Notes: generated by a model from the letters alone, not told the origin. Positions 6,868 to 22,533 are shown, counted from the stretch's first letter. The stretch is 32,000 bases of DNA from Candidatus Saccharimonadota bacterium (GCA_041661045.1 JBAZVE010000001.1:960001-992000), one strand, 5' to 3'. Numbers and translations are program-made.

Positions 6868-8301
6868 ATGGATGCTCTTATTTCTTCCCCCGCGATTTCG
6901 GCACAGAAATCGGTGAGGGCGCTTGTGCGAGAACATGCATACACCCAGTTTCCCCGTAACAATGTGAGCAAGCTCATGATTATGGAATTGGTTGAAGAGT
7001 ATGGTGTTCAGTTTGTGGATATGCAGTTCACGGATATGGACGGAGTGCTCAAGGCCGTGACGCTCCCGGTTCACAAGTTGGAGGATGCCCTGGATAACAA
7101 TGTGTGGTTCGACGGATCTTCCATCAGTGGGTTTACCGCCATCACGGAATCCGACATGATGCTGAAACCGGATTTGGATACTTTTTCAATTTTGCCTTGG
7201 ACGGTGGGCAACGAAGACCCCACCGCTCGATTGATTTGTGATGTATTGAATCCTGATGGCAGCCCTTTTGAGGGAGACCCTCGTTTCATTTTGCGCAAAC
7301 AGATGGAAGAAGCGGCGAAGCTTGGGCTCAAACCCTTTATGGGGCCTGAATTGGAATTTTTCCTTTTTGAATTGGATGCGGAGGGAAACCCGACGCTCAC
7401 CCCTCACGACAGTGCGGGATATTTTGATCAATACAGTGACAAGGCTTTGGCCTTAAGGAGGGAAATGTCCTTTGCTTTGGACATGATGGGAATTGAAATT
7501 GAACGGATGCATCACGAAGTGGCGGCGGGGCAAAGTGAAATCAACTTTAAATACTCGGATTCCTTGCACACTGCGGACAATGCCCTCACCTTTAAATTTA
7601 CGCTCAAGGCTTTGGCCAAAAAACACGGACTCCATGCTTCCTTTATGCCCAAGCCGATTTTCGGGATCAATGGCAGTGGTATGCATGTGCATCAGTCGCT
7701 TTCCTCCATTACGGATGGGGCGAATCAATTTTATGATGAAAAGGGGAAGTATGGACTCTCCGCCCTTGCTCAGAGTTACATTGCCGGGCAGCTCCAGCAC
7801 ATTCGAGCGATGAATGCGGTGATGAATCCCATTGTGAATTCCTACAAACGATTGGTGGTGGGCTATGAGGCGCCGGTGAATGCTGCGTGGGGACAAAGGA
7901 ACCGATCCGCTTTGATTCGTGTTCCCCGAGTGAGCCCTGCGGTGGCCAGCAAAGGCGCGCGGATTGAGCTTCGTTGTCCGGACCCTGCTTCCAACCCTTA
8001 CTTGGCCTTTGCGGTGATGCTTGCGGCGGGGCTGGATGGAATTAAAAAAGGTTTGGTGGCGCCCGCTCCGGTGGAAGAAAATATTTGGGAGCTGGATTCC
8101 AAACAAATGAAAAAAATGGGCATCAGCACCGTGGCTGGCACGCTTAAGGAAGCCTTGGATGCACTCGAAAAAGACGAAGTGATTCGCGCTGCGCTGGGGG
8201 AGAGCACTTTTGAAAAATTCCATGCCTCAAAAACCGCAGAGTGGGAATCTTTCCGCACCAGCGTTTCTCAATGGGAAACCGATCGGTATTTGGACTGCTA
8301 G
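6868..8301 (+). CDS. glnA: Glutamine synthetase, type I (alpha-like)
   Basis: VQFVDMQFTDMDGVLK N-domain, then FMPKP...GSGMHVHQSL and NRSALIRVP motifs. At the position of the E. coli adenylylation loop NLYDLP this protein reads NIWELD (Trp, not Tyr). The first ~35 aa have no GS counterpart, so alternative starts GTG 6964, ATG 6976 or ATG 6982 are possible. Confidence 0.95.
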   Translation: MDALISSPAISAQKSVRALVREHAYTQFPRNNVSKLMIMELVEEYGVQFVDMQFTDMDGVLKAVTLPVHKLEDALDNNVWFDGSSISGFTAITESDMMLKPDLDTFSILPWTVGNEDPTARLICDVLNPDGSPFEGDPRFILRKQMEEAAKLGLKPFMGPELEFFLFELDAEGNPTLTPHDSAGYFDQYSDKALALRREMSFALDMMGIEIERMHHEVAAGQSEINFKYSDSLHTADNALTFKFTLKALAKKHGLHASFMPKPIFGINGSGMHVHQSLSSITDGANQFYDEKGKYGLSALAQSYIAGQLQHIRAMNAVMNPIVNSYKRLVVGYEAPVNAAWGQRNRSALIRVPRVSPAVASKGARIELRCPDPASNPYLAFAVMLAAGLDGIKKGLVAPAPVEENIWELDSKQMKKMGISTVAGTLKEALDALEKDEVIRAALGESTFEKFHASKTAEWESFRTSVSQWETDRYLDC

Positions 8302-9269
8302 GCTCTGAGTAAAATTCGTTCAATGGCCAGTAAGTACTGGTCCTCCTCACGGGGTTTCAATGGAATGAGCCCCGTTTTGAGGCGATGGTCCAATTCCATG
8401 AACTTTTTCAAGAAATACCGTAGCTGTTCGAAGGTGAAGTTTTTGGTGAAACGCAGACTGCTGCTCACCACAAAGGGGTGAACTCCCATTTTGCGGGCCA
8501 TCATGGGTGCCGGCAGGTTTTGTTCACTCAGCGCTTTCATCTCTAAGATCAAACGGATTTGTCGCACAATCATTGAGAAAATAAAGGCTGGATCTTCTCC
8601 TTGTGCCTTCAGGTCTTCCATGGTTTTGAGTACCCCGGCAAAGTTTTTTTGAGCCAGTTGATCGGTGAGGGTGAAGATGGATTTTTGTACGATCCCCGTC
8701 ACTAGCTCATCCACCATTTCTCGTAGAATGGGTTCCCCCCGTGCGTAGAGGGTGAGTTTTTGAATTTCTTGATCCAAGGCAAAGAGATCATCGCCCACGG
8801 CACTCACCAGGTAACTTGCGGTTTCCGGATTGATGCGGGCTCCGGCCTGCTCCGCGCGGCGCTGTACCCAGGTGCTCAGTTGGACTCCCTTGGGTTTGAG
8901 GAACAGGCGTTTGGTGGCCAAAATATTGAGTCGTTTGAAAATGCTTGTTCGTTCATCGGGTTTGCTCTCTTCCACCATCACCAGCACGGTGCTTTCGGGC
9001 AGTTTTTCCAGTGCGGGGAGCAGGGTATTGGCGGTTTCCGCCTTTTGACTGCCCAGGAAATTTTTAAGCACGACCAGCCGTTTTTCAGATAAAAATGGAC
9101 GAGTTGAGATTGAGCTAATAATTTGTTCAACGCTTGTGTTTGAACCGTCCAATTCCTCCCAATCGCTTTCCCCAAATTTACTGACGAAGGCGTCTTTCCA
9201 TCGGGTGAGTTCTTGCCGCATGGAGAAGTGGTCTTCTCCAGACATCAAATAGAGATTGGGGCTTTCCAT
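8298..9269 (-). CDS. holA: DNA polymerase III subunit delta
   Basis: 323 aa. N-terminus NLYLMSGEDHFSMRQEL...FGESDWEELDG and overall length and helical C-terminus fit HolA. The ATG is 4 nt after the stop of the 1605-aa gene. Its stop shares a CTAG tetranucleotide with the convergent glnA stop. Confidence 0.85.
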   Translation of the reverse strand: MESPNLYLMSGEDHFSMRQELTRWKDAFVSKFGESDWEELDGSNTSVEQIISSISTRPFLSEKRLVVLKNFLGSQKAETANTLLPALEKLPESTVLVMVEESKPDERTSIFKRLNILATKRLFLKPKGVQLSTWVQRRAEQAGARINPETASYLVSAVGDDLFALDQEIQKLTLYARGEPILREMVDELVTGIVQKSIFTLTDQLAQKNFAGVLKTMEDLKAQGEDPAFIFSMIVRQIRLILEMKALSEQNLPAPMMARKMGVHPFVVSSSLRFTKNFTFEQLRYFLKKFMELDHRLKTGLIPLKPREEDQYLLAIERILLRA

Positions 9270-9273
9270 GGCC

Positions 9274-12200
9274 CTAATTTACTCCTTTTTCTGTGTTGAT
9301 GTCCACATACTCGGAGAGTGCGGGAGGAGTGTTCAAAAGGATGCGGCTGTCGTAACGAATCACGATTCCTCCACCATCAATGGTGGGAGGGCCTACATAT
9401 TTTGCCTTTTGAATCAGAGTTTGAACATTTCCGTAGAAAGATCCGTCCACGGTGAGCTGTTCATCCACCGCGCTGCGTTCGTCCCCATCAAACTTTTGAT
9501 CGGTGTAGTAGACTCCAACCAATTTTTGAGCACCGTCTTCGATGTAAATATCTCCACCCAGGACCACAAAGGCAACGGAGGGGAGATTTTTGTAATCGCC
9601 CGGGTTGCTCACGGTAGCATATTGAATGTTTTTGGTGAGGCGCAAATCGGCATTTTTAACAATGATGGTCCACGCTCCGGAGGGAACGGTGAGCCCACCC
9701 AAGGTCATGGCAGGGTCTGCCTCATTGCTGAGACTTCCATCAAAATACAAGATATTGCTGCTGCTGTTGTTGTTGTTGGTCAGGGCTTTTTCCATCTGTT
9801 CCCATGAGTCATAGGTGCTCACGGATGCCATTTGACTGGTGTCGGCATTACGAGTGGCTTGGCTGATCATGTTGCTGGTGGTGGTTTCCACCGTAGAGCT
9901 GGCCCACAGGTCACTGACCTTGGCCACGATTTCACACACAAAGGAACTCAAATTTCCGACAATACTGTTGGAATCGTCATCGTCACAGAAAGAAACGGTG
10001 GCGAGTGAATAAGTGGAAACAGTGCTGGCGCTGTCTTCGTCATCGTCATCCTCCGTGGGTTCGGTATCTTCCAAGATGATCAAGGCGTCCACATTGCGGT
10101 AATCGCTGCTGGTGGCTTCATCCTCTTCCACGAAGATACAAGAGATGTCGGAACCTCCTTCCAGGGAGACTTCCAGGTACACATCGCCGGCGTTTTGGGT
10201 CATGAGGTAAGAACAGAGCACCACCAATTTTGCTTCGGCGGTGAGTTCTTCCGTATCGTCAAAGACTTCTACGGAAGCATTGTTCTCAAACTCTTCAGTC
10301 AAACATTCGTCTGAGCTGTCTCCACAGTTGAGACCGGAAGTGATGACTCCCACATAACGAATACGGATCACCGCTTCATCTCCATAATCTTCTACAACCG
10401 TTCCGGTGTTCTCAATCACAATATCTTCGGTACTGGTTGGGGAGTGATCAGGGTCGTAACAGACTTCTTCTGTTTCCAAGTTTCCTTCTTCATCATAATC
10501 ACATTCTTCAATGCGAACGGATTCTTCCCCGGGCATTTTGATGTAGGGGAGGTAGGCCATGAAGTTGTTCCGGAATTCTTCGGAGTCTACAAATGCCGCA
10601 AGATCATCGGAGTTTTCTTCTTGTTCATCTCCAAATCCCATCATGGTGATCAAGTTGTAGTCATAAGTGGCTCCACTGGTTCCTTCCACAAGTTCACTGT
10701 AGCTGGTGGCCAGGCGGATGTTTCCACCGGAGTCGCTACCATCTCCTTTGTGTCCTTCCAAAGTGCTGCCCCACATTTCATCGGTGAAGGTGATGGCGTC
10801 TTCATCTCCGCTGGGTTCGTAGGCCAAGGTGTAGAAGGCTCGATCTTCATCGTGGGAGAAGAAGACTCCTTCATCGCTGTAGGAATTTTTCTCGGAAGAG
10901 AAGTTGAAGGTATAAATGAATTTTTCAAAGGATCCCACTTCTTTTTCTTCGGGAGCTTCCGTGATGTTGAGGTCTTCACACACGATATTGTCTTCGAGGA
11001 CTTCAATCTCAGCGCCTTCACAAACCTCTTCAAACGAAACTTCTTCACACACTTGGTCTTCGCCTTCGTCGAATTCAAAGACCATTTCTTCACACTCTCT
11101 ATCGCCTTCGGCGGTTTCGTAACACACTTCAATCACGCGTTCATCGTCTCCGTTTTCGTCACGATCCACACAGATTTCGGTTTCGATGTCTTCACAAGTG
11201 AGGTCGACTTCAAAATCGGTATCGGTGAAATCAATGTCTTCACACACATTTTCAGGAGTTGGAGTGGGGGTTGGGCTTAGGCTGTAGTCATCGCTACATT
11301 CACCGGCTTCTCCTCGAATGTAAGCTTCAATGTCGGCATCGTCTCCGGAATAAGAGTAGCTCACGGTGCTGCTGGTTCCCGAAACGGGGATTTCCAAGTG
11401 TCCGTCGCTGTAACCGGAGGAACTGCCATCACTATAATAGAGTTGGCCGTTGCCGTCTTCGGTGATGACGAGTGTTCCCGTCCAATCGCTGTCGCTTCCT
11501 TGTACGGTTACGGTCTCGGTGTCTTCATTAAGATCAAGGTCGACACAGTAGAGTCCCTCGGGAGGAGTTTGGTCGATGCTAAACGCATCGGCACACGCCT
11601 CGGAGTCGCTCACAATGTAAGAGTTCACGGTGTCCCCGGCATCTCCATTGCGGTAGAAAACAATCACAGTATCATCGGTTCCAAAAACAGGAATTTCCAG
11701 GTGGCCGTCTCCATATTCGGAGGGACTTCCATCGGTGTAGAACAAGGCTCCACTTCCGCTGCGGTTCACCACCAGAGTTCCAGCCCATCCTGGGGCACTG
11801 GCTTCCACGGCAATGGTCACGGCAATGATTCCGGCATCCTCATCTTCGGCCGACATGGTATAAGAGTCGGGATCCATTTGAAGATCGATACAGAATGGGG
11901 CTTCATCTGGAGGAGGAGGCAGGGTCACTTCTTGTGAACAAACGGCCTCTTCTCCAATCATGGAAACGGAAAGTACATTTTTGGCTTCAAAGTTTTCCCA
12001 ACAAATGATTCCGGCGTAGCTGGCGGCTCCACTGAGTCCCATGCTTACGGGGTTGCCGTATTCATTTCTCAAGGTGCTGAGTTCCAGCACGCTCAAGTTC
12101 CCGCTGTAGGCGGTTTCGCTCGGATCGGTGAAACCTTCCACAAGGAGGGTTCCGCTGTAGCTTGCGTCCGAAACGGCCAAGGCAAAATTCCAACATACGG

Positions 12201-14091
12201 TGCTTTCTTCGTAGAGCAGAGCCAAATCTTCTTCATCACTCAGATCGATTGGGGTGGTGCTTCCATCGTCATTATTGATGTAAGGACCGGAGAGGGTGAG
12301 GTCTTCACACACAGGGTTTGGTCCTTCACAAGTTTCACTTTCAATAGTATCTGAACAATACGGTTGATTGATGTCCACGATTTCAATGGTGTCTCCGGGT
12401 TCTCCGGTGTAATACACCACTTTGATGGCAGAGATGTAAAATCCGGTTCCCAAAGAGGGACCTCCGGCACTGCGGCTGAATTCTCCGTTGGGATTGCTGC
12501 TGGTGAGGCGCCAAGGTCCGGGAGTTTCTGTCCCGTCGGTCATGGTGCTTTCCCAACGAATCTCAATGCCACCTTCGGTCATTTCCTCACAGGTGAGGGT
12601 ATGATCGGGTACTCTGACTTCCAAAGATTCGCACACGGGTTTTTGGGGAGTGAGGACATAGGTGAAACCTGTTCGGCACACTCCGGCCACATCATTTTCA
12701 GCTTCTACAAGCACGCTACCGGTTTCATCACTCTGGAAGGAGTCGATGGTCCAGTCGGTGGTGGTGTAAGGAGTGGTGTCCCCATCAAATGTGGCATCCG
12801 TGTCGGTAGCGGAATAGGTCAAATCATAAGGCCAAGGATGGCCGTTGGAGGCCACGGCTTCCACTTCAATGGGAAGGTCCACTTCAGTTTCATCCACGGT
12901 AAAGAGCAGAGTTTCCGGGTCCAAAAGCAAGAGATCGCTACAGTAAGGGAATTCCACTTCGGCTTCACAGAGTCCGGTGCCTTCGTAGCTCACGCCCAAA
13001 TAATCACTCACAAAAGCGGTAAAGCGGTCTCCAGGCATGGAGTCGCGGTATTCCACCTCTGTATCGCCCGTTTCTACGGGTCCGGCATTCCCATTTAAAA
13101 TATTGAGCGAGCCGCCGTAACGGATGTCTCCGCTGGCCGCCGCGCCGTCATAATTATAAGCCTGATAAGTGACATCCACCTCATCGGTGATGACGGTTCC
13201 GTCATTGGCATAAACCGTTGCTTCAAAATCCGTATCACTAAACACATTGTCGAGTCCCACACTGCCCGGATTCAAAACAAGTTTGGAACAAGTGAGCTCC
13301 TCTTCGGTGGGGGGACAAGCGGGAAAATTGGTCACCGCCGTTCCATTGAGCCCGTACCAAAAAATATGATCTTCATCGGGATCCACTTCCTCGATATAAG
13401 AGTCAACTTCTTCTGGATAGGTTTGGTGCCAATTGCTTTCGATGCTGTGCTCAGCGTCCGGATCGATGTAGTAAAACTCCGGTTTCGTCCAACTGGTGGT
13501 GGTGACAATTTGGTCGGTGTCGTAATCCAAGAGCTCGAAAGAAATGCCTTCTATAAAATAATCTCCGCTGGGAAGCCAAGGTTTAAGGTCAATATCTTCA
13601 GGGTCCTCTCTGCCATATTCCCAGAGCAGTCCTTTGGGATTTCCTTCAATCCAGTTTAGGACTTGATAAGTTACGGTGATTCCGTTCCATTCGCCGCCAT
13701 AAACCGTATGAATGACTTCGCCCAAATCTGCTTCTTTATCAAAATTACAGGTTCTGTAGGTTCCGCTTCCATCTGTGCACAGGAAATTGGTGTCGGTGTC
13801 TACCGTTTCCAAAAAATCATCCTCAAACACAATGGCAAAACTGTGGATCACCTCCCAGAATTCTTGTGTGTCTGTATCGGTTGAAGTGTGATAGTGGGTA
13901 TGCTCGTGGGTTGCTCCTACGCAGTAACGGTCTCCTTCATCGTAGCCTCCCTCTGCGACAGCTGGAACCTCATAAGCATCTTCATTGCCTTCCGTGGCTC
14001 GGTCGCCTACAGTCATTAAAGCAAAAGCTTGGATGGGCCAAGCGAGGAGAATGCCGAGAGCGAGGGTGAAAAGGGGGGCGAATTTTTTCAT
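9274..14091 (-). CDS. Giant secreted hyperacidic Cys-rich modular protein, unknown family
   Basis: 1605 aa. Sec-type signal peptide MKKFAPLFTLALGILLAWPIQAFA. 36 Cys by my count, and D/E far exceed K/R (aa 951-1050 are 43/100 D+E by hand count). About eight Cys-delimited modules of ~90-140 aa. The C-terminal ~150 aa are non-acidic. No LPXTG, C-terminal TM, RTX or other signature that I recognise. Confidence 0.9.
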   Translation of the reverse strand: MKKFAPLFTLALGILLAWPIQAFALMTVGDRATEGNEDAYEVPAVAEGGYDEGDRYCVGATHEHTHYHTSTDTDTQEFWEVIHSFAIVFEDDFLETVDTDTNFLCTDGSGTYRTCNFDKEADLGEVIHTVYGGEWNGITVTYQVLNWIEGNPKGLLWEYGREDPEDIDLKPWLPSGDYFIEGISFELLDYDTDQIVTTTSWTKPEFYYIDPDAEHSIESNWHQTYPEEVDSYIEEVDPDEDHIFWYGLNGTAVTNFPACPPTEEELTCSKLVLNPGSVGLDNVFSDTDFEATVYANDGTVITDEVDVTYQAYNYDGAAASGDIRYGGSLNILNGNAGPVETGDTEVEYRDSMPGDRFTAFVSDYLGVSYEGTGLCEAEVEFPYCSDLLLLDPETLLFTVDETEVDLPIEVEAVASNGHPWPYDLTYSATDTDATFDGDTTPYTTTDWTIDSFQSDETGSVLVEAENDVAGVCRTGFTYVLTPQKPVCESLEVRVPDHTLTCEEMTEGGIEIRWESTMTDGTETPGPWRLTSSNPNGEFSRSAGGPSLGTGFYISAIKVVYYTGEPGDTIEIVDINQPYCSDTIESETCEGPNPVCEDLTLSGPYINNDDGSTTPIDLSDEEDLALLYEESTVCWNFALAVSDASYSGTLLVEGFTDPSETAYSGNLSVLELSTLRNEYGNPVSMGLSGAASYAGIICWENFEAKNVLSVSMIGEEAVCSQEVTLPPPPDEAPFCIDLQMDPDSYTMSAEDEDAGIIAVTIAVEASAPGWAGTLVVNRSGSGALFYTDGSPSEYGDGHLEIPVFGTDDTVIVFYRNGDAGDTVNSYIVSDSEACADAFSIDQTPPEGLYCVDLDLNEDTETVTVQGSDSDWTGTLVITEDGNGQLYYSDGSSSGYSDGHLEIPVSGTSSTVSYSYSGDDADIEAYIRGEAGECSDDYSLSPTPTPTPENVCEDIDFTDTDFEVDLTCEDIETEICVDRDENGDDERVIEVCYETAEGDRECEEMVFEFDEGEDQVCEEVSFEEVCEGAEIEVLEDNIVCEDLNITEAPEEKEVGSFEKFIYTFNFSSEKNSYSDEGVFFSHDEDRAFYTLAYEPSGDEDAITFTDEMWGSTLEGHKGDGSDSGGNIRLATSYSELVEGTSGATYDYNLITMMGFGDEQEENSDDLAAFVDSEEFRNNFMAYLPYIKMPGEESVRIEECDYDEEGNLETEEVCYDPDHSPTSTEDIVIENTGTVVEDYGDEAVIRIRYVGVITSGLNCGDSSDECLTEEFENNASVEVFDDTEELTAEAKLVVLCSYLMTQNAGDVYLEVSLEGGSDISCIFVEEDEATSSDYRNVDALIILEDTEPTEDDDDEDSASTVSTYSLATVSFCDDDDSNSIVGNLSSFVCEIVAKVSDLWASSTVETTTSNMISQATRNADTSQMASVSTYDSWEQMEKALTNNNNSSSNILYFDGSLSNEADPAMTLGGLTVPSGAWTIIVKNADLRLTKNIQYATVSNPGDYKNLPSVAFVVLGGDIYIEDGAQKLVGVYYTDQKFDGDERSAVDEQLTVDGSFYGNVQTLIQKAKYVGPPTIDGGGIVIRYDSRILLNTPPALSEYVDINTEKGVN
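11245..11892 (-). repeat. Tandem duplication of a ~100-115-aa module inside the 1605-aa protein (aa 734-848 and 849-949)
   Basis: The two copies align as WAGTLVVNRSGSGALFYTDGSPSEYGDGHLEIPVFGTDDTVIVFYRNGDAGDTVNSYIVSDSEACADAFSI versus WTGTLVITEDGNGQLYYSDGSSSGYSDGHLEIPVSGTSSTVSYSYSGDDADIEAYIRGEAGECSDDYSL. Both copies start with C-[IV]-D-L. The copies are diverged at the DNA level. Confidence 0.8.
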
Positions 14092-14103
14092 GGTTGGAAA
14101 GAT

Positions 14104-14256
14104 TTATTGCATTGGAGACTCCTGTCCGCCGGGTTCCATTTGGATTGAGCTTCCTTCTTGGACAGGGTTGTATTTGATATTTTCAACCTGTTCTTGTGTC
14201 CCACACGCAGTGAGCAGGAGAGACAGGCTTGACATTATAATAAAAATTGTTCTCAT
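14104..14256 (-). CDS. 50-aa lipoprotein (unannotated small ORF between the two giant genes)
   Basis: Hand translation of the minus strand gives MRTIFIIMSSLSLLLTACGTQEQVENIKYNPVQEGSSIQMEPGGQESPMQ*, with ATG 14256 and TAA 14106-14104. Hydrophobic signal plus lipobox LTAC. It fills the gap between the giants, 20 nt after the upstream stop and 12 nt before the downstream ATG. It falls below the track's length cutoff. Confidence 0.5.
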   Translation of the reverse strand: MRTIFIIMSSLSLLLTACGTQEQVENIKYNPVQEGSSIQMEPGGQESPMQ

Positions 14257-14276
14257 AGTCAATGGGTGAATGGTTA

Positions 14277-17200
14277 TTATCGTGGGGAGTTTTGTCCTCC
14301 TTGTGGGGTAATGGTGTGGTCCCCTGGATTGTTTTGTGGCAATTCGTCTGGACTACCCCAAAGATTTGGCTTGTCTTGCCCAGGCAACGGAGGAATGAAT
14401 CCTCCGCCTGGCACAATAGGAATGACTCCTGGGCTCACGCGCAAGGTGGTGTAGTCTACGCCTATTTCCGGGCGAACTTCTTGAGTGAGCGCTTGCCGTG
14501 TGGCGGCGACTTTGACTTCTTTGGGCTGGGTGAGTGTGTAATCGATTTCCACATTGCGGGCCACTGTGAGGTTTTCACACTTGCCATAGAGACAAACAAA
14601 GAATTCTTCGGTTAAAGTTACTGGATTTCCACGGACCATGCTTTGACCATCTTTGAGTAGTTTAAGAACATCTTGAGTGAACTCTTGGGCGAGCTCCGGG
14701 TGAGTTGGCACTCCTGTTTCCACCATTTGCTTGATGTCTCTGCCATCTTCTGGTCCATACAGTTTGTCTGCAATTTGAGCCAGACGAAGGCCGGCCATGT
14801 CCTTTCGAATGTCTTTAAACGAGGCATTTGCTGGAAGCTTTTTCCATTCCGATAAGCCTTTTATGCTTTGTGCGGCTGGGTCGTCCTTTTCAGCGTACAT
14901 CGCGCCATTCATTCCCCCGTGGATATTGAAGTCGTAGTAACCTTGTAAAAGTTTTCGAGTTCCGCTGTCGTCGATGGCAATGAGGAATTCGCTGCCTTCG
15001 GGGAGAGAACTTACGGTATTTGCATTTGCTTGAAGAGATTCTATGACTCTTGCTCCATCTTCTTCACCAAATATTGCCTGCGCAGCCTCGGTATTCCATT
15101 TCCATGGGATCTCTTTTGCGTCAGGTCGGCCGATTTGCATGGCGTATTGGTGAGCCAAGAGGATTTGTTGATCTGTGGGTTCCGTGACGCCGATGTTTTT
15201 GTATCGTTCTGTGATCAGTGAATCGATAGTGTCGCGGTTGGCTGCAACGGCCAAATGGTCGTAATCCATTTTGTCTGTTTTTACGAGTTGTTCAGCTACG
15301 GCCTTAGCGTCTTCGTGGTCATCATGGGTGAGACCTTCAAAGAGTTTGACCTCGCGAACGCCTTCTTGCATGCGAACGGTTTCCCATTCTACTTCGCGTG
15401 CGTTTTGTTTGGCGCCTTCGAGGCTGAGGTCGCCCAAGACGAGTCCATTGTCTTTTGCTTCGACATCAGTGCGAGTCAGGATATTCTCTCTTAAAAGTGG
15501 ATTTTCTACTTTGTCGTTCTTCAGAAGTCGAGTGTCGGTGGTGCCGTCTTTGGTTTGAATCCATTCCATATAACTGGGACTTTGAGACATGATCTGCTCG
15601 ATGGTGGTGTTTTCATCGCTCGTGAGTCCCACGAAGAACAGTTTTTTCCCAGTGTAAGGATCGGTGGTTTCAAGAGTGCGGAGGAGCAAGGCATCGCCAC
15701 TGTCCAAGTTGAGGAGAGGCGCTCCGCCGTCTCCATCTTGAATGGCTTCTATGTCGCTCATTGCATCAGGGTAGAAGCGCACCATTCCATCGATATTTTG
15801 GAGGGTCAACTGAGTGAATTTTCCGTTGAAGGTGAGCACGGCTTGACCTTTGAGTTTTTCGTTCATTGCGGCCAAGGCCTTGCTCGCGTTTGCAATAGCT
15901 TCGGCTTCGGCATTGGCTTTGTCACCATCATTTTCGTAAAGGAATTCATCTTTGAGCTCAATGGGTTCCCAATCGGGTTGAACTTCTTTGTAGTCTACTG
16001 GCAAGGCGACGGGTAGGCCGCTCTTCATGGAATCGCTGACCATGTCCGGAGTTTCCAATAGGGCGGGAATGTACCGTGTTACGGGACGGAAGCCCACGCC
16101 AAAGGTGATGTAGGCACCCAGGGCGAAGCCACCCTCTTTGAGACCGACTGCGGCGGTGGGCCCGGCGCTGATGTATTTGATTTGTTTGCTCCATTTGCTG
16201 AAGTCTTTGGTTTCTCCGTAGGCGATTCGGTAATTTACATAGGATTCCCATTCGGCCTTGAGGGCCTTTTTCATGGGGTCTTCAACATGCTCAAGATCAT
16301 CTATTTGTGCATAAATTTCGGTTCGAATAGTCTCCAATTCTTCTTTATGTGTTTCTTTAAACTCGCGGATTCTTTTTTGTAAAACTTTATCGAGATTGCG
16401 ATCGAGGCTTAGCGGATGAAATCCTGCAACATCCCCGCTTTTACTGAGGCCCAGATTTGCTCCCGTGCCAAGCGATAGCGTTCCGGATTCATTGAGGTCG
16501 CGACTGATGCCAAGCCCAAAGGTTGGCCCAATCAATCCTTGAGGATCGCTGAGTCCGGCGCTGAGGCGGGCATAAGCTTCCAAGTGAGTGCGGCCTTTTT
16601 TACCCAAGTCTATTTGGTAGATCAGACCTCCGTGCATTCGGAGCACAGGCAGGACAGTTCCTGCAGAAACGGTCCATTGCAAACTGAGTCGCCCTGGGAA
16701 ATCCTTATTAAGGAGAGGGATGAGTGCGCCGGCTTCCAGTGCGGCCATGGCGTGTACTTCTTCGCCGGGTTGAATGGCGGCCAATCCGCTGAGCACTCCT
16801 TGAATGTGTCCGCCTAAGTCTTCTTTAAGGGCCTTTTCTTGTTCGTCGGTGAGGGTTCCTGCGGGAATTTGTGCGGTAAGCTCATCCACCATTCCGTTTG
16901 TTGCGGTGTTTACATCTGCAGTGATTTCTTCCGCTTCAATATTTTGCAGCACTCGCATTTCGGCGGCGGCAAAGGCCATGGCTCCGTAACGGATGGCGGC
17001 AATTTGATCTTTGCTGAGGGTGAATGTGGGATCGTTGAGATTCTCTAGTGTGATGGGGGCTACACTCACCGCTTTTCCATATCCCAAATGGTTTTTTTCG
17101 CCGTTGATCTTGTTTTGACCATGAATTAAATAAGTGTTGAGGGTTTCCAGGTAACTGGCCCCATTTTCGTGGTTCATCAATTTATCAAAGGCACGGGCGT

Positions 17201-18593
17201 GAGAAATGACTTGCTGTTCGCCATAACTTTTGTAGCCTTTGCTGACGCGTTGGCGAGCAGTACTCATCCAGTTGTCTGCGTTCACCGTCGGACGGTCTTT
17301 GCCCGAAAGTGTGAAGGCGATGGCTTGAAAGACATTGTATGAAATGCTGGGCCCCTGGCTGTTGCGATCAAAAACTTCTCCAGTGAGGCGGAACATGGCG
17401 GCTTTTTCTCCGGTGAGACCTTCGTAAGCGGCCTCTCGCTGTGTTTTTGCCTCCTTCTCTATCCTTATTTTTTCGGCGTCTTCTTGGGCGGAGGGAAGTT
17501 CATTTATTAAAGTCTGTACGGCGGCAAAAAATTTTTCTAAGTGAGGAGTGTTGGCTTCCAATTGATCTTCATTTTTCCCATACACGGCTTTTGCGATTTC
17601 GTTGGAATTGATTTCAAAACGACCTCCCTTAGAAAGAATGCCTCCGTGGAGTGCTTTCCATGTCATGCGGGTGTCGATGAGGCCCACTTGGTCGCGATGA
17701 ATGGCAGCCATCATGCGGAGCGCATTGTAAATGGCTTCTCCACTCTCAAGATCTTTAATGGTCTCGATGTGTTCAAAAGAATTTTCTCCACGGAAAAGCT
17801 CCGGAATTTCTACGCTTGTTCCCGGAAAGCTGACCAGAGTCAGTTCGCTTTGTGCAGGTAGTGCGACCGCTTCGGGAGTTTCTGTATCTTCGGAGGCTGC
17901 GGCAGCCGCTTTTTCTCTAGCAATTTCGTCTTCAACCATAGCTTTTTCATCATCCGTGAAGTGGGTGGAGGGGGTTTCTTCCGGTTCTTCCTCCGGCCCT
18001 TCCCACTCTGATTCAGCAAAGTCTGTTGAAAGTCCCGCAGCCTCTGGTGTCACGGTTACTGGGCCATCTGCCCCATCGAAGGTGATGGGTTCTTGAGCCA
18101 CTTGAGCGGTGCTTGGAATAACTCTTGTTGTGCTCCTTAGGCTGGCTTCAAAGCTTTGCTGATCCAGCGGTGCTGCTTGAGGTACGGGACGCACTAAGTT
18201 TTTGTCTCTTAGGGCGATGTGTTGGTTCAATTGGGTTTGACGGAAGGTGAAGAGGTCTCGCACTTCTTTTTGAGAAAGTGCAAAGTCCTGAATCCTCTCA
18301 AAAAACCTTTCCAGCGCTTCTTTATAACTTTTTGGGCTGAGGATATCCTTTAAGTCTTGAATACGCTTCAGCTCGTTTAGGATCCGATCTAGATTCTCCA
18401 AAAGCACTGCAGCATCGGCGGGGCTGGCTTTATCAATCAATTTGTTTAAATGGCGAACACTTTCCGGAAGGAGAAATTCGGCTTTTTCCACCTGGTCTCT
18501 GACTTCATGAAGTTCGTTTTTGATTGGAGCTTGCTCCGACTGATGAAGTGCCATACGGGTGGGTTTTATTTTTGTTTTAAATCTATTAATCAT
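14277..18593 (-). CDS. Giant protein (1438 aa) without signal peptide, unknown family
   Basis: Long ORF with an ATG start (alternative ATG at 18554). N-terminal ~130 aa look helical or coiled-coil, followed by an acidic linker (EWEGPEEEPEETP...). Gly-rich amphipathic beta-like segments lie mid-protein, and the tail is Pro/Gly-rich. Only 2 Cys. No TM, signal peptide or catalytic motif that I recognise. Confidence 0.85.
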   Translation of the reverse strand: MINRFKTKIKPTRMALHQSEQAPIKNELHEVRDQVEKAEFLLPESVRHLNKLIDKASPADAAVLLENLDRILNELKRIQDLKDILSPKSYKEALERFFERIQDFALSQKEVRDLFTFRQTQLNQHIALRDKNLVRPVPQAAPLDQQSFEASLRSTTRVIPSTAQVAQEPITFDGADGPVTVTPEAAGLSTDFAESEWEGPEEEPEETPSTHFTDDEKAMVEDEIAREKAAAAASEDTETPEAVALPAQSELTLVSFPGTSVEIPELFRGENSFEHIETIKDLESGEAIYNALRMMAAIHRDQVGLIDTRMTWKALHGGILSKGGRFEINSNEIAKAVYGKNEDQLEANTPHLEKFFAAVQTLINELPSAQEDAEKIRIEKEAKTQREAAYEGLTGEKAAMFRLTGEVFDRNSQGPSISYNVFQAIAFTLSGKDRPTVNADNWMSTARQRVSKGYKSYGEQQVISHARAFDKLMNHENGASYLETLNTYLIHGQNKINGEKNHLGYGKAVSVAPITLENLNDPTFTLSKDQIAAIRYGAMAFAAAEMRVLQNIEAEEITADVNTATNGMVDELTAQIPAGTLTDEQEKALKEDLGGHIQGVLSGLAAIQPGEEVHAMAALEAGALIPLLNKDFPGRLSLQWTVSAGTVLPVLRMHGGLIYQIDLGKKGRTHLEAYARLSAGLSDPQGLIGPTFGLGISRDLNESGTLSLGTGANLGLSKSGDVAGFHPLSLDRNLDKVLQKRIREFKETHKEELETIRTEIYAQIDDLEHVEDPMKKALKAEWESYVNYRIAYGETKDFSKWSKQIKYISAGPTAAVGLKEGGFALGAYITFGVGFRPVTRYIPALLETPDMVSDSMKSGLPVALPVDYKEVQPDWEPIELKDEFLYENDGDKANAEAEAIANASKALAAMNEKLKGQAVLTFNGKFTQLTLQNIDGMVRFYPDAMSDIEAIQDGDGGAPLLNLDSGDALLLRTLETTDPYTGKKLFFVGLTSDENTTIEQIMSQSPSYMEWIQTKDGTTDTRLLKNDKVENPLLRENILTRTDVEAKDNGLVLGDLSLEGAKQNAREVEWETVRMQEGVREVKLFEGLTHDDHEDAKAVAEQLVKTDKMDYDHLAVAANRDTIDSLITERYKNIGVTEPTDQQILLAHQYAMQIGRPDAKEIPWKWNTEAAQAIFGEEDGARVIESLQANANTVSSLPEGSEFLIAIDDSGTRKLLQGYYDFNIHGGMNGAMYAEKDDPAAQSIKGLSEWKKLPANASFKDIRKDMAGLRLAQIADKLYGPEDGRDIKQMVETGVPTHPELAQEFTQDVLKLLKDGQSMVRGNPVTLTEEFFVCLYGKCENLTVARNVEIDYTLTQPKEVKVAATRQALTQEVRPEIGVDYTTLRVSPGVIPIVPGGGFIPPLPGQDKPNLWGSPDELPQNNPGDHTITPQGGQNSPR

Positions 18594-18661
18594 ATCACAA
18601 AATCAGGATGGCCGCAAGAGTCTTCGCTTGGCAATTTTTAAGGTTGAGGCAAGATAGTGGT

Positions 18662-19330
18662 ATGGCGCTACAGACTCCCATCCTCATCACCAATTTTAAA
18701 TCGTACCAAGAGTCCACGGGCCCACGGGCGGTGGAGCTGGCCAAGTTGCATGAACGAGTGGCGAACGAGCTTGGGGTGAACACCGCGATTGTGGGGATGT
18801 TTTTGGATTTGCCCATGCTGGCCTCGTGCGTCAGCATTCCGGTTTTGGCTCCGCATTTGGATGGAGTGGGTTATGGGGCTTATACAGGGCTTATTCCGGT
18901 GGAAGTGGCGCGAGGAGTGGGGATTGACGGGGCGATGCTGAATCATTCGGAGCGACGGATTTCCGATTCGGAGATTGCGCGAGCTTTGGAACGGATGAAG
19001 GCGCTCAATATGCTCTCGCTGGTTTGCGCGGAGAGCTTGGAGGAAGGGAAGAAATTTGCGGATATGGGGGCGGATTTTGTGGCGATTGAAGTGCCGGAAT
19101 TGATTGGAGGAGAGGTTTCTGTTTCGGTGGCCAGGCCGGAGTTGATTACGGAGGCGGTGGCTAAAATAGGAGCCGGAAAAGTGATTGTGGGAGCGGGAAT
19201 AAAGACGGCGGACGATGTGCGCATTGCGCTGAGTCTGGGGGCGGTGGGAGTTTTGGTGTCCAGCGGGGTAGTGAAAGCCGCGGATCCTTTGGCGAAATTG
19301 CGTGAATTGTGCGGAGCTTTGCGGGCGTAA
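18662..19330 (+). CDS. tpiA: Triosephosphate isomerase, archaeal type (~222 aa)
   Basis: ILITNFKSY (catalytic Lys), MLNHSERR (His) and AIEVPELIGG (Glu). Short length and overall collinearity with archaeal TIMs such as Pyrococcus (from memory). The ORF extends to ATG 18608, but that extension has no TIM counterpart. Confidence 0.9.
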   Translation: MALQTPILITNFKSYQESTGPRAVELAKLHERVANELGVNTAIVGMFLDLPMLASCVSIPVLAPHLDGVGYGAYTGLIPVEVARGVGIDGAMLNHSERRISDSEIARALERMKALNMLSLVCAESLEEGKKFADMGADFVAIEVPELIGGEVSVSVARPELITEAVAKIGAGKVIVGAGIKTADDVRIALSLGAVGVLVSSGVVKAADPLAKLRELCGALRA

Positions 19331-21102: not shown

Positions 21103-21984
21103 TTAGACCTCCCTCCGTTTCTCTTGCACCTTTAGATTGATCGCATGCGCAATGGCATGGTGGTCTTTGCAGAGTGGGGCCAGGTAATGAGGATCATGCG
21201 CGTGGCTCAGTGCGAAGGTTTGGGTGTGGTGGACTTGCTCCGCCGGCTTTCTACAGCTTGGGATTGAGCACTTACTGCCGTGCTCTTGATCTAAAACCTT
21301 CTTGGTGCGGGCGGGAATATGACGAGATTGTGTCGGCTCCAGGCCTTCGCTTATGGCCACTTTCTCTTCAGCGATCTCTTGGTCCCGTTTATCAAGGAGA
21401 TCCGTAAGGATTTCATCCACATTGAGGCCTTTTTCTTGTAAGGTCAGGAGTCTTTTTGTAAGCTCCGTGCTGAGCCGAAGGTCTTGCGCGCGCAAGGATT
21501 TTGCCTCAAATAATGGCTGTAGTAAGCCATTTCTATTTTGGTCGGCTGCCTGTTCAGCCATGATTTTCTGATCCCGTACCAAAGTCTCCACTGCACTTTG
21601 AGAAAGATTTTGAACCGCTTCGGCCCATTCTTCTTCATTCTCAGTGCTTGCCACGGAGGCCACCCTTGCAAGCTTGTTCACGCTTACACTTCCCTCCACC
21701 AAGAGGGCCCTCAAAGCGGGTTTATCTGAAAAACATTTCTCAAGATTCAGGGCGGTTCTTACTTGCTGTTCACTCAGTCCCGCAAGTTTAAATGCACATT
21801 CAAAAATGGATCCGAATCCTTTCCTTTCATACAAACGGCGACGGTTGAGTTCGGGGAGAAGTCCTATAAACTTATGCCTCCATTCCAGGGCGTTTCTTCC
21901 ATAAAGTCGTGCCTTTTCGTACAGTTCCCCGTCTGTGAGGCGAGTCGAATAGTCAGGCGTGGATGTCAAAGAATTGGGGGTCAT
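21103..21984 (-). CDS. HNH endonuclease domain protein (DUF222-like N-terminal region)
   Basis: C-terminal HNH/zinc-ribbon pattern CSIPSCRKPAEQVHHTQTF...LAPLCKDHHAIAH. The N-terminal helical region RRRLYERKGFGSIFECAFKLAGLSEQQ is typical of this family. The ORF extends to a GTG at 22026; I prefer ATG 21984. Confidence 0.85.
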   Translation of the reverse strand: MTPNSLTSTPDYSTRLTDGELYEKARLYGRNALEWRHKFIGLLPELNRRRLYERKGFGSIFECAFKLAGLSEQQVRTALNLEKCFSDKPALRALLVEGSVSVNKLARVASVASTENEEEWAEAVQNLSQSAVETLVRDQKIMAEQAADQNRNGLLQPLFEAKSLRAQDLRLSTELTKRLLTLQEKGLNVDEILTDLLDKRDQEIAEEKVAISEGLEPTQSRHIPARTKKVLDQEHGSKCSIPSCRKPAEQVHHTQTFALSHAHDPHYLAPLCKDHHAIAHAINLKVQEKRREV

Positions 21985-22128
21985 ATTTGTAGGGTTAATG
22001 AACCTTAATTCTAAACCAAAATCCACCTCATTAACAGGTTAAAAGCATCCTTTTGAGTGGCACTCAGTCAAGAATATGGTATGGTGAATGTGTGCTCACC
22101 CTTGTGCGCCACATTCTAGTAAAACCCA

Positions 22129-22533
22129 TCAGTTTCGTGGCAACTTGAAGAAGTCCTTCATGAATTCTTTGAGCTCTGCTTCACTCAGGACATCGGTGGT
22201 CTCCACACCTTTGAGTTTGGGGAAGAGGGCTTTGTTGGTTTCGAGCACGGCTTTGAATTCATGCTTGGCGGTGCCGGGCCCAAAAATCACAATCTCATCG
22301 CTGCCTTCCAAATGCTTTAAAACCTCTTTTCCAAAGGCTTTCATTTGATTGTGGCGGCGGTCGTCGTGGCGGTTCTGATTCACAATGGTTTGGTGCTCGC
22401 TGTCGTCGTGACCTCCTTTGTGGTGGGGCTCAACTTCCGAGTGAAACGAATCCATGTTCACTTCGCCCATTTTATTCGCTTTGAGAACGATGGCATGAGC
22501 GTGATCGATCCAGATGCCTGTAAGAGTTGTCAT
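22129..22533 (-). CDS. Hypothetical protein, host-attachment-protein / baeRF-like (tentative)
   Basis: 134 aa. N-terminal GIWIDHAHAIVL, a His-rich middle (HHKGGHDDSEHQ...RHDDRRHNQ), and C-terminal FGKEVLKHLEGSDEIVIFGPGTAKHEFKAVL...LSEAELKEF. This layout resembles host-attachment / eRF1-domain-3-like proteins. The family call is from memory only. Confidence 0.6.
   Translation of the reverse strand: MTTLTGIWIDHAHAIVLKANKMGEVNMDSFHSEVEPHHKGGHDDSEHQTIVNQNRHDDRRHNQMKAFGKEVLKHLEGSDEIVIFGPGTAKHEFKAVLETNKALFPKLKGVETTDVLSEAELKEFMKDFFKLPRN

What the first reader, a model, noticed from the sequence alone, without database searches (positions are those of the whole stretch)
8298..18593. Giant-gene cassette: 1438-aa protein, 50-aa lipoprotein and 1605-aa secreted hyperacidic protein, packed head-to-tail into holA
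Seen in sequence:
- Four minus-strand ORFs run consecutively: 18593->14277, 14256->14104, 14091->9274, 9269->8298.
- The gaps between them are only 20, 12 and 4 nt.
- About 9.3 kb (29% of the window) of non-housekeeping coding sequence therefore faces the same way as an essential replication gene, with no room for internal terminators.
- The three cassette products carry complementary targeting signals: none, lipobox, and Sec signal peptide.
- In neither giant can I find a catalytic motif or a known adhesin, RTX, LPXTG, autotransporter or pilin signature.

Inference: this is a three-part envelope or host-contact apparatus. It would consist of an exported acidic module array, a lipid-anchored micro-adaptor, and a large partner exported non-classically or acting from the cytoplasm. 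Such a system is plausible for an episymbiotic small-genome bacterium, but I cannot name a described family that fits.
Basis: partly seen in the sequence, partly recalled or inferred. Interest (0 to 1): 0.85.

Follow-up and report, generated by a model that had tools for sequence, protein, structure and literature searches.

The report
Conserved giant surface-protein gene pair
Two giant genes and a tiny lipoprotein gene of unknown function sit in the same place, between a sugar-metabolism gene and a DNA-replication gene, in every sampled relative of this small-genome groundwater bacterium, and they evolve much faster than their neighbours, which fits a cell-surface contact structure whose function is still untested.

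Summary
Four minus-strand ORFs, 20/12/4-nt gaps, holA, a lipobox, a Sec signal peptide and pI 4.05 are all real. One correction: giant A probably starts at M14 (18554).

The organism is a Peribacteria/Peregrinibacteria MAG that uses the standard genetic code.

New findings:
- The order tpiA<-|SP-less giant -> (small anchored peptide) -> exported giant -> holA recurs in 14 distinct Peregrinibacteria loci, including marine and very divergent lineages.
- B's last ~365 aa match 431 clusters. All eleven relatives whose locus could be read lie just downstream of a giant ORF, ten of them beside holA. The domain looks like the hallmark of one positional orthologue rather than a paralogue family.
- A is the fastest-evolving gene at the locus: about 30% identity where housekeeping neighbours are 82%.
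- The small lipoprotein keeps only its lipobox and is absent from 4 of 13 loci.
- Tight packing against holA is local to this genome.

No Pfam, NCBIfam, PDB, PHROG or PADLOC match exists for either giant. Both AlphaFold models failed (pLDDT 51 and 41).

Best reading (0.5): a lineage-specific envelope or host-contact pair. B is a displayed, disulfide-rich surface protein held by its conserved C-terminal domain. A's location and role are unresolved.

The parts
14277..18554 (-). Giant A (1425 aa from M14; 1438 aa if the upstream ATG at 18593 is used). It has no signal peptide and no TM helix, 2 Cys and pI 4.9. It is predicted mostly helical with a few beta regions. It is the fastest-evolving gene of the locus.
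   Evidence: ORF and composition. (start at M14 aligns with homologue N-termini; NCBI calls 1425 aa). (no family or PDB match). (24-43% identity where neighbours are 62-87%). (AF2 pLDDT 40.7, unusable).
16044..16181 (-). Most conserved block of A, about residues 805-850 (ISAGPTAAVGLKEGGFALGAYITFGVGFRPVTRYIPALLETPD). It consists of two ~12-residue Gly-rich hydrophobic segments joined by a KEGG turn. It may be a membrane-interacting hairpin; that reading is inference.
   Evidence: block 801-850 has the highest column identity, 0.71. (invariant G811, G822, G826, G834, T839, E847, P849). The hairpin is read directly from the sequence. No 19-residue window reaches KD 1.4.
14104..14256 (-). 50-aa lipoprotein precursor: signal peptide, lipobox LTAC, and a mature peptide of about 32 aa that is acidic and low in complexity.
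   Evidence: weak lipoprotein-signal matches only. (a small lipoprotein sits at the same junction in 8 distinct loci; only the signal and lipobox are conserved). It is absent from 4 loci and replaced by a TM peptide in L019.
9274..14091 (-). Giant B (1605 aa): a Sec-type signal peptide (residues 1-24), a variable Cys-delimited module region (about residues 25-1040) and a conserved C-terminal region (residues 1041-1605). pI 4.05; 36 Cys, 27 of them invariant among 10 homologues.
11221..11910 (-). The only internal duplication in B detectable by sequence: residues 728-856 against 843-957, 38% identity.
9277..10374 (-). C-terminal domain that defines the B family (B residues ~1240-1605; it ends ...GSFYGN...IRYDSRILLNTPPALSEYVD...). 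It lies at or within a few residues of the C-terminal end of the relatives it matches.
   Evidence: 431 clusters at E<=1e-3, 124 at <=1e-30. (alignment; C-terminal position). (no PDB sequence relative). (best fold hit is ComZ, E 0.06, not significant).
8298..9269 (-). holA (DNA polymerase III delta subunit). It is the conserved downstream neighbour. A possible Shine-Dalgarno sequence (AGGAG) lies inside the end of B.
18608..19330 (+). tpiA (triosephosphate isomerase). It is the conserved, divergently transcribed upstream boundary of the cassette.
14234..14262 (-). Sigma-70-like promoter match, TTGACT-17-TATAAT (11 of 12 positions), overlapping the start of the small ORF. It may be an internal promoter for B, or it may be chance.
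   Evidence: Among the relatives' junctions only L018 has a comparable match. The total number of promoter-like sites is below the shuffle expectation (4 found against 8.4 expected).

Best explanation
The cassette is a vertically inherited gene pair found across Peregrinibacteria at a fixed genomic position, with an optional small membrane-anchored peptide between the two genes. It most likely builds a cell-envelope or cell-surface structure used for contact with other cells or with substrate.

Shown:
- B carries a Sec signal peptide.
- B is extremely acidic and has 27 invariant Cys placed at module borders.
- Its N-terminal two-thirds vary quickly, while its last ~365-565 aa are as conserved as holA.
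- Distant relatives with the same C-terminal domain carry adhesin-type modules: DUF4215, SdrD_B, CARDB and dockerin.

Inferred for B:
- It is exported by Sec and folded oxidatively outside the cell into a chain of modules.
- The conserved C-terminal domain holds or assembles it at the envelope, and the variable part is displayed.

The 50-aa product is made as a lipoprotein. The lipobox is shown; processing is inferred. Only its anchor is conserved, so I read it as a short acidic tether or accessory that can be lost.

Shown for A:
- It is encoded immediately upstream on the same strand in every locus.
- It has no export signal, no TM helix and almost no Cys.
- It is the fastest-evolving gene at the locus.

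Inferred for A: it is made together with B and works with it. It would act either from the cytoplasmic face of the membrane, perhaps through its conserved Gly-rich hydrophobic hairpin, or after export by an unrecognised route.

The link to holA is conserved gene order, not shared function. The 4-nt junction seen here is a local compaction.
For: Synteny:
- The order tpiA<-|giant->B-type->holA occurs in the window and in L001, L003, L005/L008, L006, L007, L012, L013, L016, L017, the P0020 locus, L018 (tpiA is out of view there), L019 and L022.
- It holds even where holA is only 27-47% identical to the window copy.
- The gaps between A and B are small: 17-214 nt, or an overlap of the called ORFs in L017.

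B as an exported surface protein:
- Signal peptide, pI 4.05 and 36 Cys.
- 27 Cys are invariant among 10 homologues.
- The C-terminal-domain profile finds 431 clusters.
- Relatives belong to Peregrinibacteria, and some are annotated 'cysteine-rich repeat protein'.
- Among 23 distant relatives, Pfam finds DUF4215 in 6 and SdrD_B, CARDB and dockerin in one each.
- Peribacteria are reported to encode large Cys-rich extracellular proteins proposed to act in attachment, four Lgt copies and a disulfide-bond protein (PMC4736985).

Evolutionary-rate gradient:
- L005 against L007: tpiA 92%, Mur ligase 91%, holA 89%, B 72%, A 55%.
- Window against L006: tpiA/Mur ligase 82%, B 57%, A 29%.
- Within B, the N-terminal part is 37-48% identical and the C-terminal part 49-70%.

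Other points:
- Lipoprotein signals recur at the A/B junction in 8 distinct loci.
- The protein in A's position in L019 carries a LysM domain above Pfam's gathering score (30.1 bits against 20.9). This hints at contact with the cell wall.
Against: - There is no experimental or structural evidence for the location of any of the three products.
- Both AF2 models are poor (pLDDT 50.6 and 40.7), and no fold match is significant.
- A has no export signal and only 2 Cys, whereas exported proteins of this lineage tend to be Cys-rich. That argues for a cytoplasmic location and leaves its tie to B resting on gene order alone.
- Proteins in A's position in L016, L019 and L022 show no detectable homology to A. 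The slot may therefore hold unrelated giants.
- Fast evolution is also typical of coiled-coil or disordered proteins under weak constraint, so it does not prove surface exposure.
- Conserved gene order in small, rarely rearranged genomes can persist without any functional link. The flanking housekeeping genes are equally syntenic.
Confidence: 0.5

Rival explanations
1. Two independent functions. B is a structural coat protein of the envelope, S-layer-like or matrix-like, with no role in host contact. A is a cytoplasmic scaffold or cytoskeletal giant. They are neighbours only because gene order in these small genomes is frozen.
For: - The whole neighbourhood (truB, Mur ligase, flavokinase, Wzy_C, tpiA ... 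holA, glnA, TrmB, gatA/C, coaD-like, ftsX) is syntenic in the same loci. Adjacency alone is therefore weak evidence.
- A lacks any export signal and has 2 Cys.
- A is predicted mostly helical.
- B's acidity resembles that of S-layer proteins (general knowledge).
Against: - A and B stay directly adjacent with gaps of 17-214 nt, while other junctions in the same neighbourhood accept insertions, for example between B and holA.
- S-layer proteins are usually poor in Cys, whereas B has 27 invariant Cys.
- B has no SLH domain.
- A evolves faster than every neighbour, which is unusual for a housekeeping scaffold.
Confidence: 0.2
2. Effector-delivery pair. A is a hypervariable effector, or a pore- or conduit-forming protein, that is exported by a non-Sec route and inserted into a partner cell's envelope. 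B is the adhesin or translocation platform, and the lipoprotein anchors the complex.
For: - A is the fastest-evolving gene of the locus.
- It has almost no Cys, which is compatible with translocation in an unfolded state.
- It contains Gly-rich, OMP-like alternating beta segments (about residues 620-735) and a conserved hydrophobic Gly-rich hairpin (residues 805-850).
- Homologues share a conserved N-terminal motif, MAIHCFxFGFxxPF...RVYL.
- The protein in A's position in L019 has a LysM domain and no signal peptide.
- The gene in A's position ranges from 1.4 to 7 thousand codons, as polymorphic effectors do.
- Predatory or episymbiotic lifestyles with giant surface proteins are documented in related CPR bacteria (PMC8080830).
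Against: - There is no toxin, MACPF, RHS or other pore-former match, whole or in fragments.
- No secretion-system genes lie in the window.
- The N-terminal motif is degenerate in the window copy.
- No immunity-like gene is present.
- No host is known for this lineage.
Confidence: 0.12
3. B is a tip adhesin associated with type IV pili, analogous to PilY1/PilC or ComZ. Its conserved C-terminal domain would dock onto minor pilins, and A would be unrelated.
For: - The architecture, Sec signal peptide plus variable N-terminus plus conserved C-terminal domain, parallels PilY1 (general knowledge).
- The best Foldseek hit for the C-terminal model is the Thermus competence pilin ComZ (6qvi_B). Other pilins and adhesins follow it in the list.
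- CPR bacteria rely heavily on type IV pili (PMC8080830).
Against: - The fold hit is not significant (E 0.06, probability 0.44, TM 0.12), and it comes from a model with pLDDT 50.6.
- B has no prepilin (class III) signal.
- There is no PilY1/PilC Pfam match.
- No pilin or pilus-assembly genes occur in the window or in the syntenic loci.
Confidence: 0.08

Closest known systems
Large cysteine-rich extracellular proteins of Candidatus Peribacter riflensis (Anantharaman et al. 2016, PeerJ, PMC4736985)
   Same: Same lineage. These are proteins of 1,200-3,900 aa, most with signal peptides, predicted to be extracellular and without functional annotation. They are the main site of variation between strains and were proposed to act in attachment. 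B fits this description.
   Different: The paper describes a loose class, including a 14-gene cluster with about 7% Cys. B has 2.2% Cys. The paper passages I read do not mention the pairing with an SP-less giant, the small lipoprotein, the tpiA/holA position or the shared C-terminal domain. I did not check whether the P. riflensis orthologues are among the listed proteins.
Giant membrane or surface proteins of Vampirococcus lugosii (Absconditabacteria; Moreira et al. 2021, PMC8080830)
   Same: A CPR bacterium with a reduced genome. Its ten longest proteins (1,392-4,163 aa) are inferred to be at the surface and to mediate recognition of, and attachment to, the host.
   Different: Those proteins carry recognisable interaction domains (WD40, PKD, DUF11, integrin, fibronectin). 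Neither A nor B has any. No homology was detected.
PilY1/PilC-type pilus tip adhesins and the Thermus competence pilin ComZ
   Same: The layout is similar (Sec signal peptide, variable N-terminal part, conserved C-terminal part), which I compare from general knowledge. ComZ is the top fold hit.
   Different: The hit is not significant. B has no beta-propeller or PilC domain and no prepilin signal, and there are no pilin genes nearby.
Giant adhesin systems of diderm bacteria: two-partner secretion (TpsA/TpsB) and RTX adhesins with T1SS
   Same: They also pair a very large, acidic, modular exoprotein gene with accessory genes.
   Different: B has no TPS domain, no Omp85 partner, no RTX repeats and no ABC or MFP genes. 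The accessory gene here is itself a giant with no signal peptide.
Sortase-anchored (LPXTG) modular surface proteins of monoderm bacteria
   Same: These are modular exported proteins whose conserved C-terminal element serves for anchoring.
   Different: B ends in a hydrophilic tail (...LNTPPALSEYVDINTEKGVN). It has no LPXTG motif, no C-terminal TM helix and no basic tail.

Membership tests
DNA polymerase III delta subunit (holA) | Match to the equivalog model TIGR01128 above its cut-off, plus the Pfam delta N- and C-terminal domains | tested here: met
   TIGR01128 scores 250.3 bits (cut-off 80), E 2.8e-74. PF06144 and PF21694 are both above their gathering scores.
Bacterial lipoprotein (Lgt/LspA substrate) | N-terminal basic residue, hydrophobic core, and a lipobox [LVI][ASTVI][GAS]C within the first ~35 residues | tested here: met
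   MRTIFIIMSSLSLLLTAC contains the lipobox L-T-A-C. Equivalent lipoboxes occur at the same junction in 7 other loci. Lgt is reported in four copies in Peribacteria (PMC4736985). Actual lipidation cannot be tested here.
Sec-exported protein (B) | Cleavable N-terminal signal peptide with n-, h- and c-regions and small residues at -3 and -1 | tested here: met
   MKKFAPLFTLALGILLAWPIQAFA|L, with A at -3 and A at -1. It is the only stretch of B with KD > 1.4. No dedicated predictor was available, so this was judged by rule.
Sec-exported or membrane protein (A) | Signal peptide or TM helix | tested here: not met
   No 19-residue window reaches KD > 1.4. The N-terminus is hydrophilic in the window copy and in its homologues.
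Peribacteria large Cys-rich extracellular proteins (descriptive class, PMC4736985) | More than 1,000 aa, signal peptide, elevated Cys content, no functional annotation | tested here: met
   B is 1605 aa with a signal peptide. It has 36 Cys (2.2%, against the reported proteome mean of 1.67%), 27 of them invariant, and no annotation. Its Cys content is well below the ~7% of the reported 14-gene cluster.
LPXTG / sortase substrates | C-terminal LPXTG-like motif followed by a hydrophobic helix and a basic tail | tested here: not met
   The C-terminus is ...RILLNTPPALSEYVDINTEKGVN. It has no hydrophobic segment and no basic tail.
Two-partner secretion / autotransporter / RTX adhesins | TPS domain or haemagglutinin repeats, a beta-barrel translocator, RTX nonapeptides, or T1SS genes nearby | tested here: not met
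   There are no Pfam or NCBIfam matches. The only trace is a T5SS/PEP-CTERM repeat below threshold, E 0.01 and 15.9 bits against a cut-off of 23. The neighbouring genes are housekeeping genes.
Type IV pilins / ComZ / PilY1 | Class III (prepilin) signal, or a PilC/PilY1 C-terminal propeller, or a significant fold match; pilin gene neighbourhood | tested here: not met
   B has a Sec-type rather than a prepilin signal and no Pfam match. The Foldseek hit to ComZ has E 0.06 and probability 0.44 and comes from a low-confidence model. No pilin genes are present.
S-layer proteins with SLH anchoring | SLH domains | tested here: not met
   Neither A nor B has an SLH match. An unrelated 881-aa SLH protein lies after holA in L005/L008 only.
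Phage or anti-phage defence proteins | Match to PHROGs or PADLOC models | tested here: not met
   Neither giant has a match at E <= 0.1.

The most novel reading that the evidence does not exclude
The pair is a contact machine of a kind not yet described, common to all Peregrinibacteria. The exported, disulfide-rich giant B would be the anchored adhesin or platform. The SP-less hypervariable giant A (1.4-7 thousand residues, depending on lineage) would leave the cell by a route that is neither Sec nor any known secretion system. It would then insert its Gly-rich beta segments into a partner cell's envelope as the conduit or effector of episymbiosis.
Probability: 0.12. Interest if true: 0.85.

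Novelty: new variant of a known kind. Interest (0 to 1): 0.6.

Why it matters
CPR bacteria are thought to live attached to other cells, but the molecules that make the contact are almost unknown outside a few cultured Saccharibacteria. This locus offers a concrete and easily recognised candidate. The gene pair takes up about 0.7% of a 1.3-Mb genome. It has kept the same position across a whole class-level lineage while diverging faster than its neighbours. It also carries a diagnostic C-terminal domain (431 clusters) that can be used to find the locus in any Peregrinibacteria bin.

The locus gives specific targets for transcriptomics, surface proteomics, cryo-ET labelling and structure prediction. 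The rate gradient (A faster than the N-terminal part of B, which is faster than its C-terminal part, which is about equal to holA) gives a testable picture of which parts face selection from partners or phages. If A proves to be exported, that would imply an unrecognised export route in bacteria that lack the known specialised secretion systems.

Tried and rejected
1. Domain searches. Pfam and NCBIfam on the whole proteins and on ten fragments at E <= 10 gave only noise: SHOCT, ATP-synt_ab_C, FRB and a sub-threshold T5SS/PEP-CTERM repeat.

2. PDB sequence and profile searches with single sequences and with alignments A1, A2 and A8 found nothing. The best hits had E 0.4-0.7 (gasdermin, Cog5, L33).

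3. AlphaFold2.
- B residues 1040-1605 with 9 sequences: pLDDT 50.6.
- A residues 250-1400 with 5 sequences: pLDDT 40.7.
- Both models are too poor to use.
- The Foldseek/PDB results are not significant for B and meaningless for A.

4. Alternative genetic code (code 25, expected from the 'Gracilibacteria' label): rejected. TGA ends 7 of 25 genes, and the housekeeping ORFs are intact under table 11.

5. HExxH metalloprotease reading of HEHTH at B residues 62-66: rejected. Only H62 is invariant, and E63 is not conserved.

6. NTPPG as a sortase-type or exosortase-type sorting signal: rejected, because no hydrophobic tail follows it.

7. Two allelic classes of A produced by replacement: rejected. 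The full pairwise matrices show a phylogeny roughly congruent with the housekeeping genes, with identity saturating near 30%.

8. Internal promoter at 14262..14234: recorded, but it is not conserved.

9. Homology between A and B, or between A and the giant upstream of B in L015: none.

10. A profile search for more A relatives with alignment A2 returned only the same five proteins.

11. The metagenome scan for more B loci was limited by its search pattern and yielded only three loci. Alignment A8 was too divergent to seed a scan.

12. Phage or defence origin: no PHROG or PADLOC match.

Full report
**Observation**

The four minus-strand ORFs exist exactly as described: 18593->14277 (1438 aa), 14256->14104 (50 aa), 14091->9274 (1605 aa) and 9269->8298 (323 aa). 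The gaps are 20, 12 and 4 nt.

- The last ORF is holA (TIGR01128, 250 bits, E 2.8e-74; Pfam delta N- and C-terminal domains).
- The 50-aa product begins MRTIFIIMSSLSLLLTAC, a lipoprotein signal with lipobox L-T-A-C.
- The 1605-aa protein (B) begins MKKFAPLFTLALGILLAWPIQAFA. This is its only hydrophobic stretch.
- B has pI 4.05, 21% D+E, 3.6% K+R and 36 Cys.
- The 1438-aa protein (A) has no hydrophobic stretch, pI 4.9 and 2 Cys.
- Neither giant matches any Pfam or NCBIfam model, either whole or cut into ten fragments at E <= 10.
- Neither matches a PDB sequence, a PHROG or a PADLOC model.

One correction concerns the start of A. The homologues of A start MAIHCF..., and this aligns with M14 of the window ORF (MALH...). 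NCBI also calls the protein at 1425 aa. A therefore most likely starts at 18554, which leaves 53 nt before the divergent tpiA gene.

**Organism and code**

Identical proteins come from a 1,316,577-bp contig of a MAG labelled 'Candidatus Gracilibacteria'. Relatives are labelled Candidatus Peribacteria or Peregrinibacteria. TGA ends 7 of the 25 window genes, and all housekeeping ORFs are intact under table 11. The standard code therefore applies, and the ORF calls are sound. The neighbours are ordinary housekeeping genes: ftsX, a cytidylyltransferase, gatC/gatA, an S51 peptidase, TrmB, glnA, tpiA, a Wzy_C protein, a Mur ligase, truB, a GT4 transferase, dnaG and rpoD.

**Synteny**

This is the main new result. 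Around close homologues of B, the same order is found: tpiA on the opposite strand, then a giant without Pfam domains, usually a small ORF, then B, then holA. This holds in L001, L003/L004, L005, L006 and L007. A genome scan with the A alignment adds L008, L012 and L013.

I then looked up distant proteins that share only B's C-terminal domain (E 1e-39 to 1e-178).
- P0065 (L016), P0031 (L017), P0020, P0063 (L018) and P0047 (L019) all lie at the same locus. An SP-less giant of 1555-6969 aa lies immediately upstream and holA downstream. tpiA lies upstream wherever the flank reaches it.
- A marine contig of 1.25 Mb (L022) shows the same layout.
- The one partial exception is P0051 (L015). A giant of more than 3269 aa precedes the B-type gene, but holA is not adjacent.

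The arrangement is thus seen in 14 distinct loci, even where holA is only 27-47% identical to the window copy.

It follows that B's C-terminal domain looks like the signature of one positional orthologue rather than a multi-copy paralogue family. The domain matches 431 clusters at E <= 1e-3 and lies at or near the C-terminal end of proteins of 1,000-2,600 aa. Copy number per genome was not measured directly.

**The junction with holA**

The tight packing against holA is not conserved.
- A same-strand gene of 280-297 aa intervenes in L001, L006, L007 and L013.
- An opposite-strand gene of 275 aa intervenes in L005/L008.
- Non-coding gaps of 95-284 nt occur in L016-L019 and L022.

The 4-nt junction in the window is therefore a local compaction, and nothing ties holA functionally to the cassette.

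**The small ORF**

A small lipoprotein of 45-64 aa sits between the giants in 8 distinct loci: the window, L001, L005/L008, L006, L007, L012, L013 and the marine L022. Only the signal peptide and lipobox align; the mature peptides are short, acidic and unrelated in sequence. In L019 a 70-aa single-pass membrane peptide takes its place. In L003, L016, L017 and L018 there is nothing there. It is a frequent accessory that can be lost, not an obligatory third component.

**Anatomy of B**

Among ten homologues, 27 of the 36 Cys are invariant. They fall in pairs at module borders of the type C..DL.L.P. Only one module pair is detectably duplicated: residues 728-856 against 843-957, 38% identity.

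The N-terminal 1040 residues are 37-48% identical to the Peribacteria relatives, and the last 565 residues are 49-70% identical, about the same as holA. Twenty-three distant relatives with the same C-terminal domain are mostly free of Pfam domains. Six carry DUF4215 Cys-rich repeats, and single members carry SdrD_B, CARDB or dockerin, which are modules typical of surface and adhesin proteins. Some sources name these relatives 'cysteine-rich repeat protein'.

This matches the published description of Peribacteria. They are reported to encode large, Cys-rich, signal-peptide-bearing extracellular proteins of unknown function that vary between strains and were proposed to act in attachment. They are also reported to have four Lgt copies and a disulfide-bond protein (PMC4736985).

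**Anatomy of A**

A is acidic and is predicted mostly helical with a few beta regions, but the model is unusable (pLDDT 40.7). Its best-conserved block is residues ~805-850, a Gly-rich hydrophobic hairpin (AAVGLKEGGFALGAYITFGVGF) with invariant G811, G822, G826 and G834. Residues ~620-735 are Gly-rich with an alternating pattern reminiscent of membrane beta-strands; this is read from the sequence, and no family matches it. No His is invariant, and no catalytic motif is apparent.

A is by far the fastest-evolving gene here.

| Comparison | tpiA | Mur ligase | holA | B | A |
|---|---|---|---|---|---|
| L005 vs L007 | 92% | 91% | 89% | 72% | 55% |
| Window vs L006 | 82% | 82% | 73% | 57% | 29% |

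Homology remains detectable by profile-profile comparison to the giant in A's position in L017 (hhalign probability 95.7%, E 8.8e-9, 626 collinear columns). It is not detectable to the corresponding giants in L016, L019, L022 or L015. The L019 giant has an N-terminal LysM domain above Pfam's gathering score and no signal peptide. The gene in this position ranges from 1,425 to 6,969 codons.

**Transcription signals**

No terminator-like site lies in the three junctions on the coding strand, and the count of such sites does not exceed that of shuffled sequence. One strong sigma-70-like match (TTGACT-17-TATAAT, 11 of 12 positions) spans 14262..14234. If real, it would start a transcript inside the small ORF and drive B. 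Among the relatives' junctions only L018 has a comparable match, so I record it without relying on it.

**Structure attempts**

**Interpretation**

What is shown:
- The gene pair is fixed in position across the lineage.
- One partner carries a Sec signal, many conserved Cys, a variable body and a conserved C-terminal domain.
- A small anchored peptide is often encoded between the two genes.
- There is a steep rate gradient: A evolves faster than the N-terminal part of B, which evolves faster than its C-terminal part, which evolves at about the rate of holA.

What is inferred:
- B is displayed on the envelope and held by its C-terminal domain.
- The lipoprotein is a tether or accessory.
- A acts together with B.
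- The structure serves contact with other cells.

A's location is the weak point. The absence of a signal peptide and of Cys argues for the cytoplasm. Its extreme divergence, the LysM domain in one positional counterpart and its Gly-rich hydrophobic segments leave room for export or membrane insertion. I put 0.5 on the envelope or contact-pair reading. I put 0.2 on independent functions frozen together by synteny, 0.12 on an effector or conduit role for A, and 0.08 on B being a pilus-tip adhesin.

**Novelty**

Large Cys-rich exported proteins of Peribacteria, and giant surface proteins of CPR bacteria in general, are already described as classes (PMC4736985; PMC8080830). Three things appear not to be described in the passages I read of the two papers I consulted:
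- the obligate pairing with an SP-less hypervariable giant;
- the fixed tpiA/holA position across the lineage;
- the diagnostic C-terminal domain.

None of the three products has a characterised homologue. I rate it a new variant of a known kind, with interest 0.6.

Noticed in passing
L018:1-9916 (ENA ERZ27237597 k141_308458): The giant gene in A's position upstream of the B-type gene is called at 6,969 aa in this Peregrinibacteria contig, about five times the length of the window's A. Its C-terminus ends in a poly-Lys tail (…GRKKKKKKRKKKDDEKP).
   Followed up: partly
L019:5119-9786: The giant in A's position in this distant relative carries an N-terminal LysM domain (PF01476, 30.1 bits against a gathering score of 20.9) but has no signal peptide. 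The small ORF after it (9808-10020) is a single-pass membrane peptide rather than a lipoprotein.
   Followed up: partly
window 14234-14262 (minus strand): A near-consensus sigma-70 promoter match (TTGACT-17-TATAAT, 11 of 12 positions) overlaps the start codon of the small lipoprotein ORF. Among the relatives' A/B junctions only L018 has a comparable match.
   Followed up: yes
window 27216-27746 and 27772-28263 (+): Two adjacent small proteins (176 and 163 aa) both have lipoprotein signals (LLFTAC, FLLAC) and no Pfam match. They lie just upstream of dnaG.
   Followed up: no
window 21103-22026 (-): A 307-aa protein with no Pfam hit at 1e-3 has a C-terminus that looks HNH-like (…HHTQTFALSHAHDPHYLAPLCKDHHAIAH). 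It is not present at this position in most syntenic relatives.
   Followed up: no
window 8298-8301: glnA (+, 6868-8301) and holA (-, 8298-9269) converge, and their stop-codon ends overlap by 4 nt. No intergenic terminator can fit between them.
   Followed up: no
L005:16958-19603 / L008:21734-24379: In one Peribacteria population, an 881-aa protein with an SLH domain is inserted directly after holA. It is another envelope protein at the edge of the same locus.
   Followed up: no
window 13888-13908 (B residues 62-68): A His-rich motif, HEHTHYH, lies shortly after B's signal peptide. A C...HxH.[YF] pattern recurs near the N-terminus of distant B-type proteins, but only H62 is invariant. It may be a metal site, and it is not a conserved HExxH motif.
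   Followed up: partly
whole window: The MAG is labelled 'Candidatus Gracilibacteria', a name associated with genetic code 25. Here, however, TGA serves as a stop codon in 7 of 25 genes and the GC content is about 49%. The organism belongs to the standard-code Peribacteria/Peregrinibacteria group.
   Followed up: yes
window 22129-22533 (-) and syntenic loci: A 134-aa His-rich and Asp-rich hypothetical protein (…HSEVEPHHKGGHDDSEHQ…) is conserved at exactly 134 aa in L001, L005, L006 and L007, next to the flavokinase and Wzy_C genes. It has no family match.
   Followed up: no
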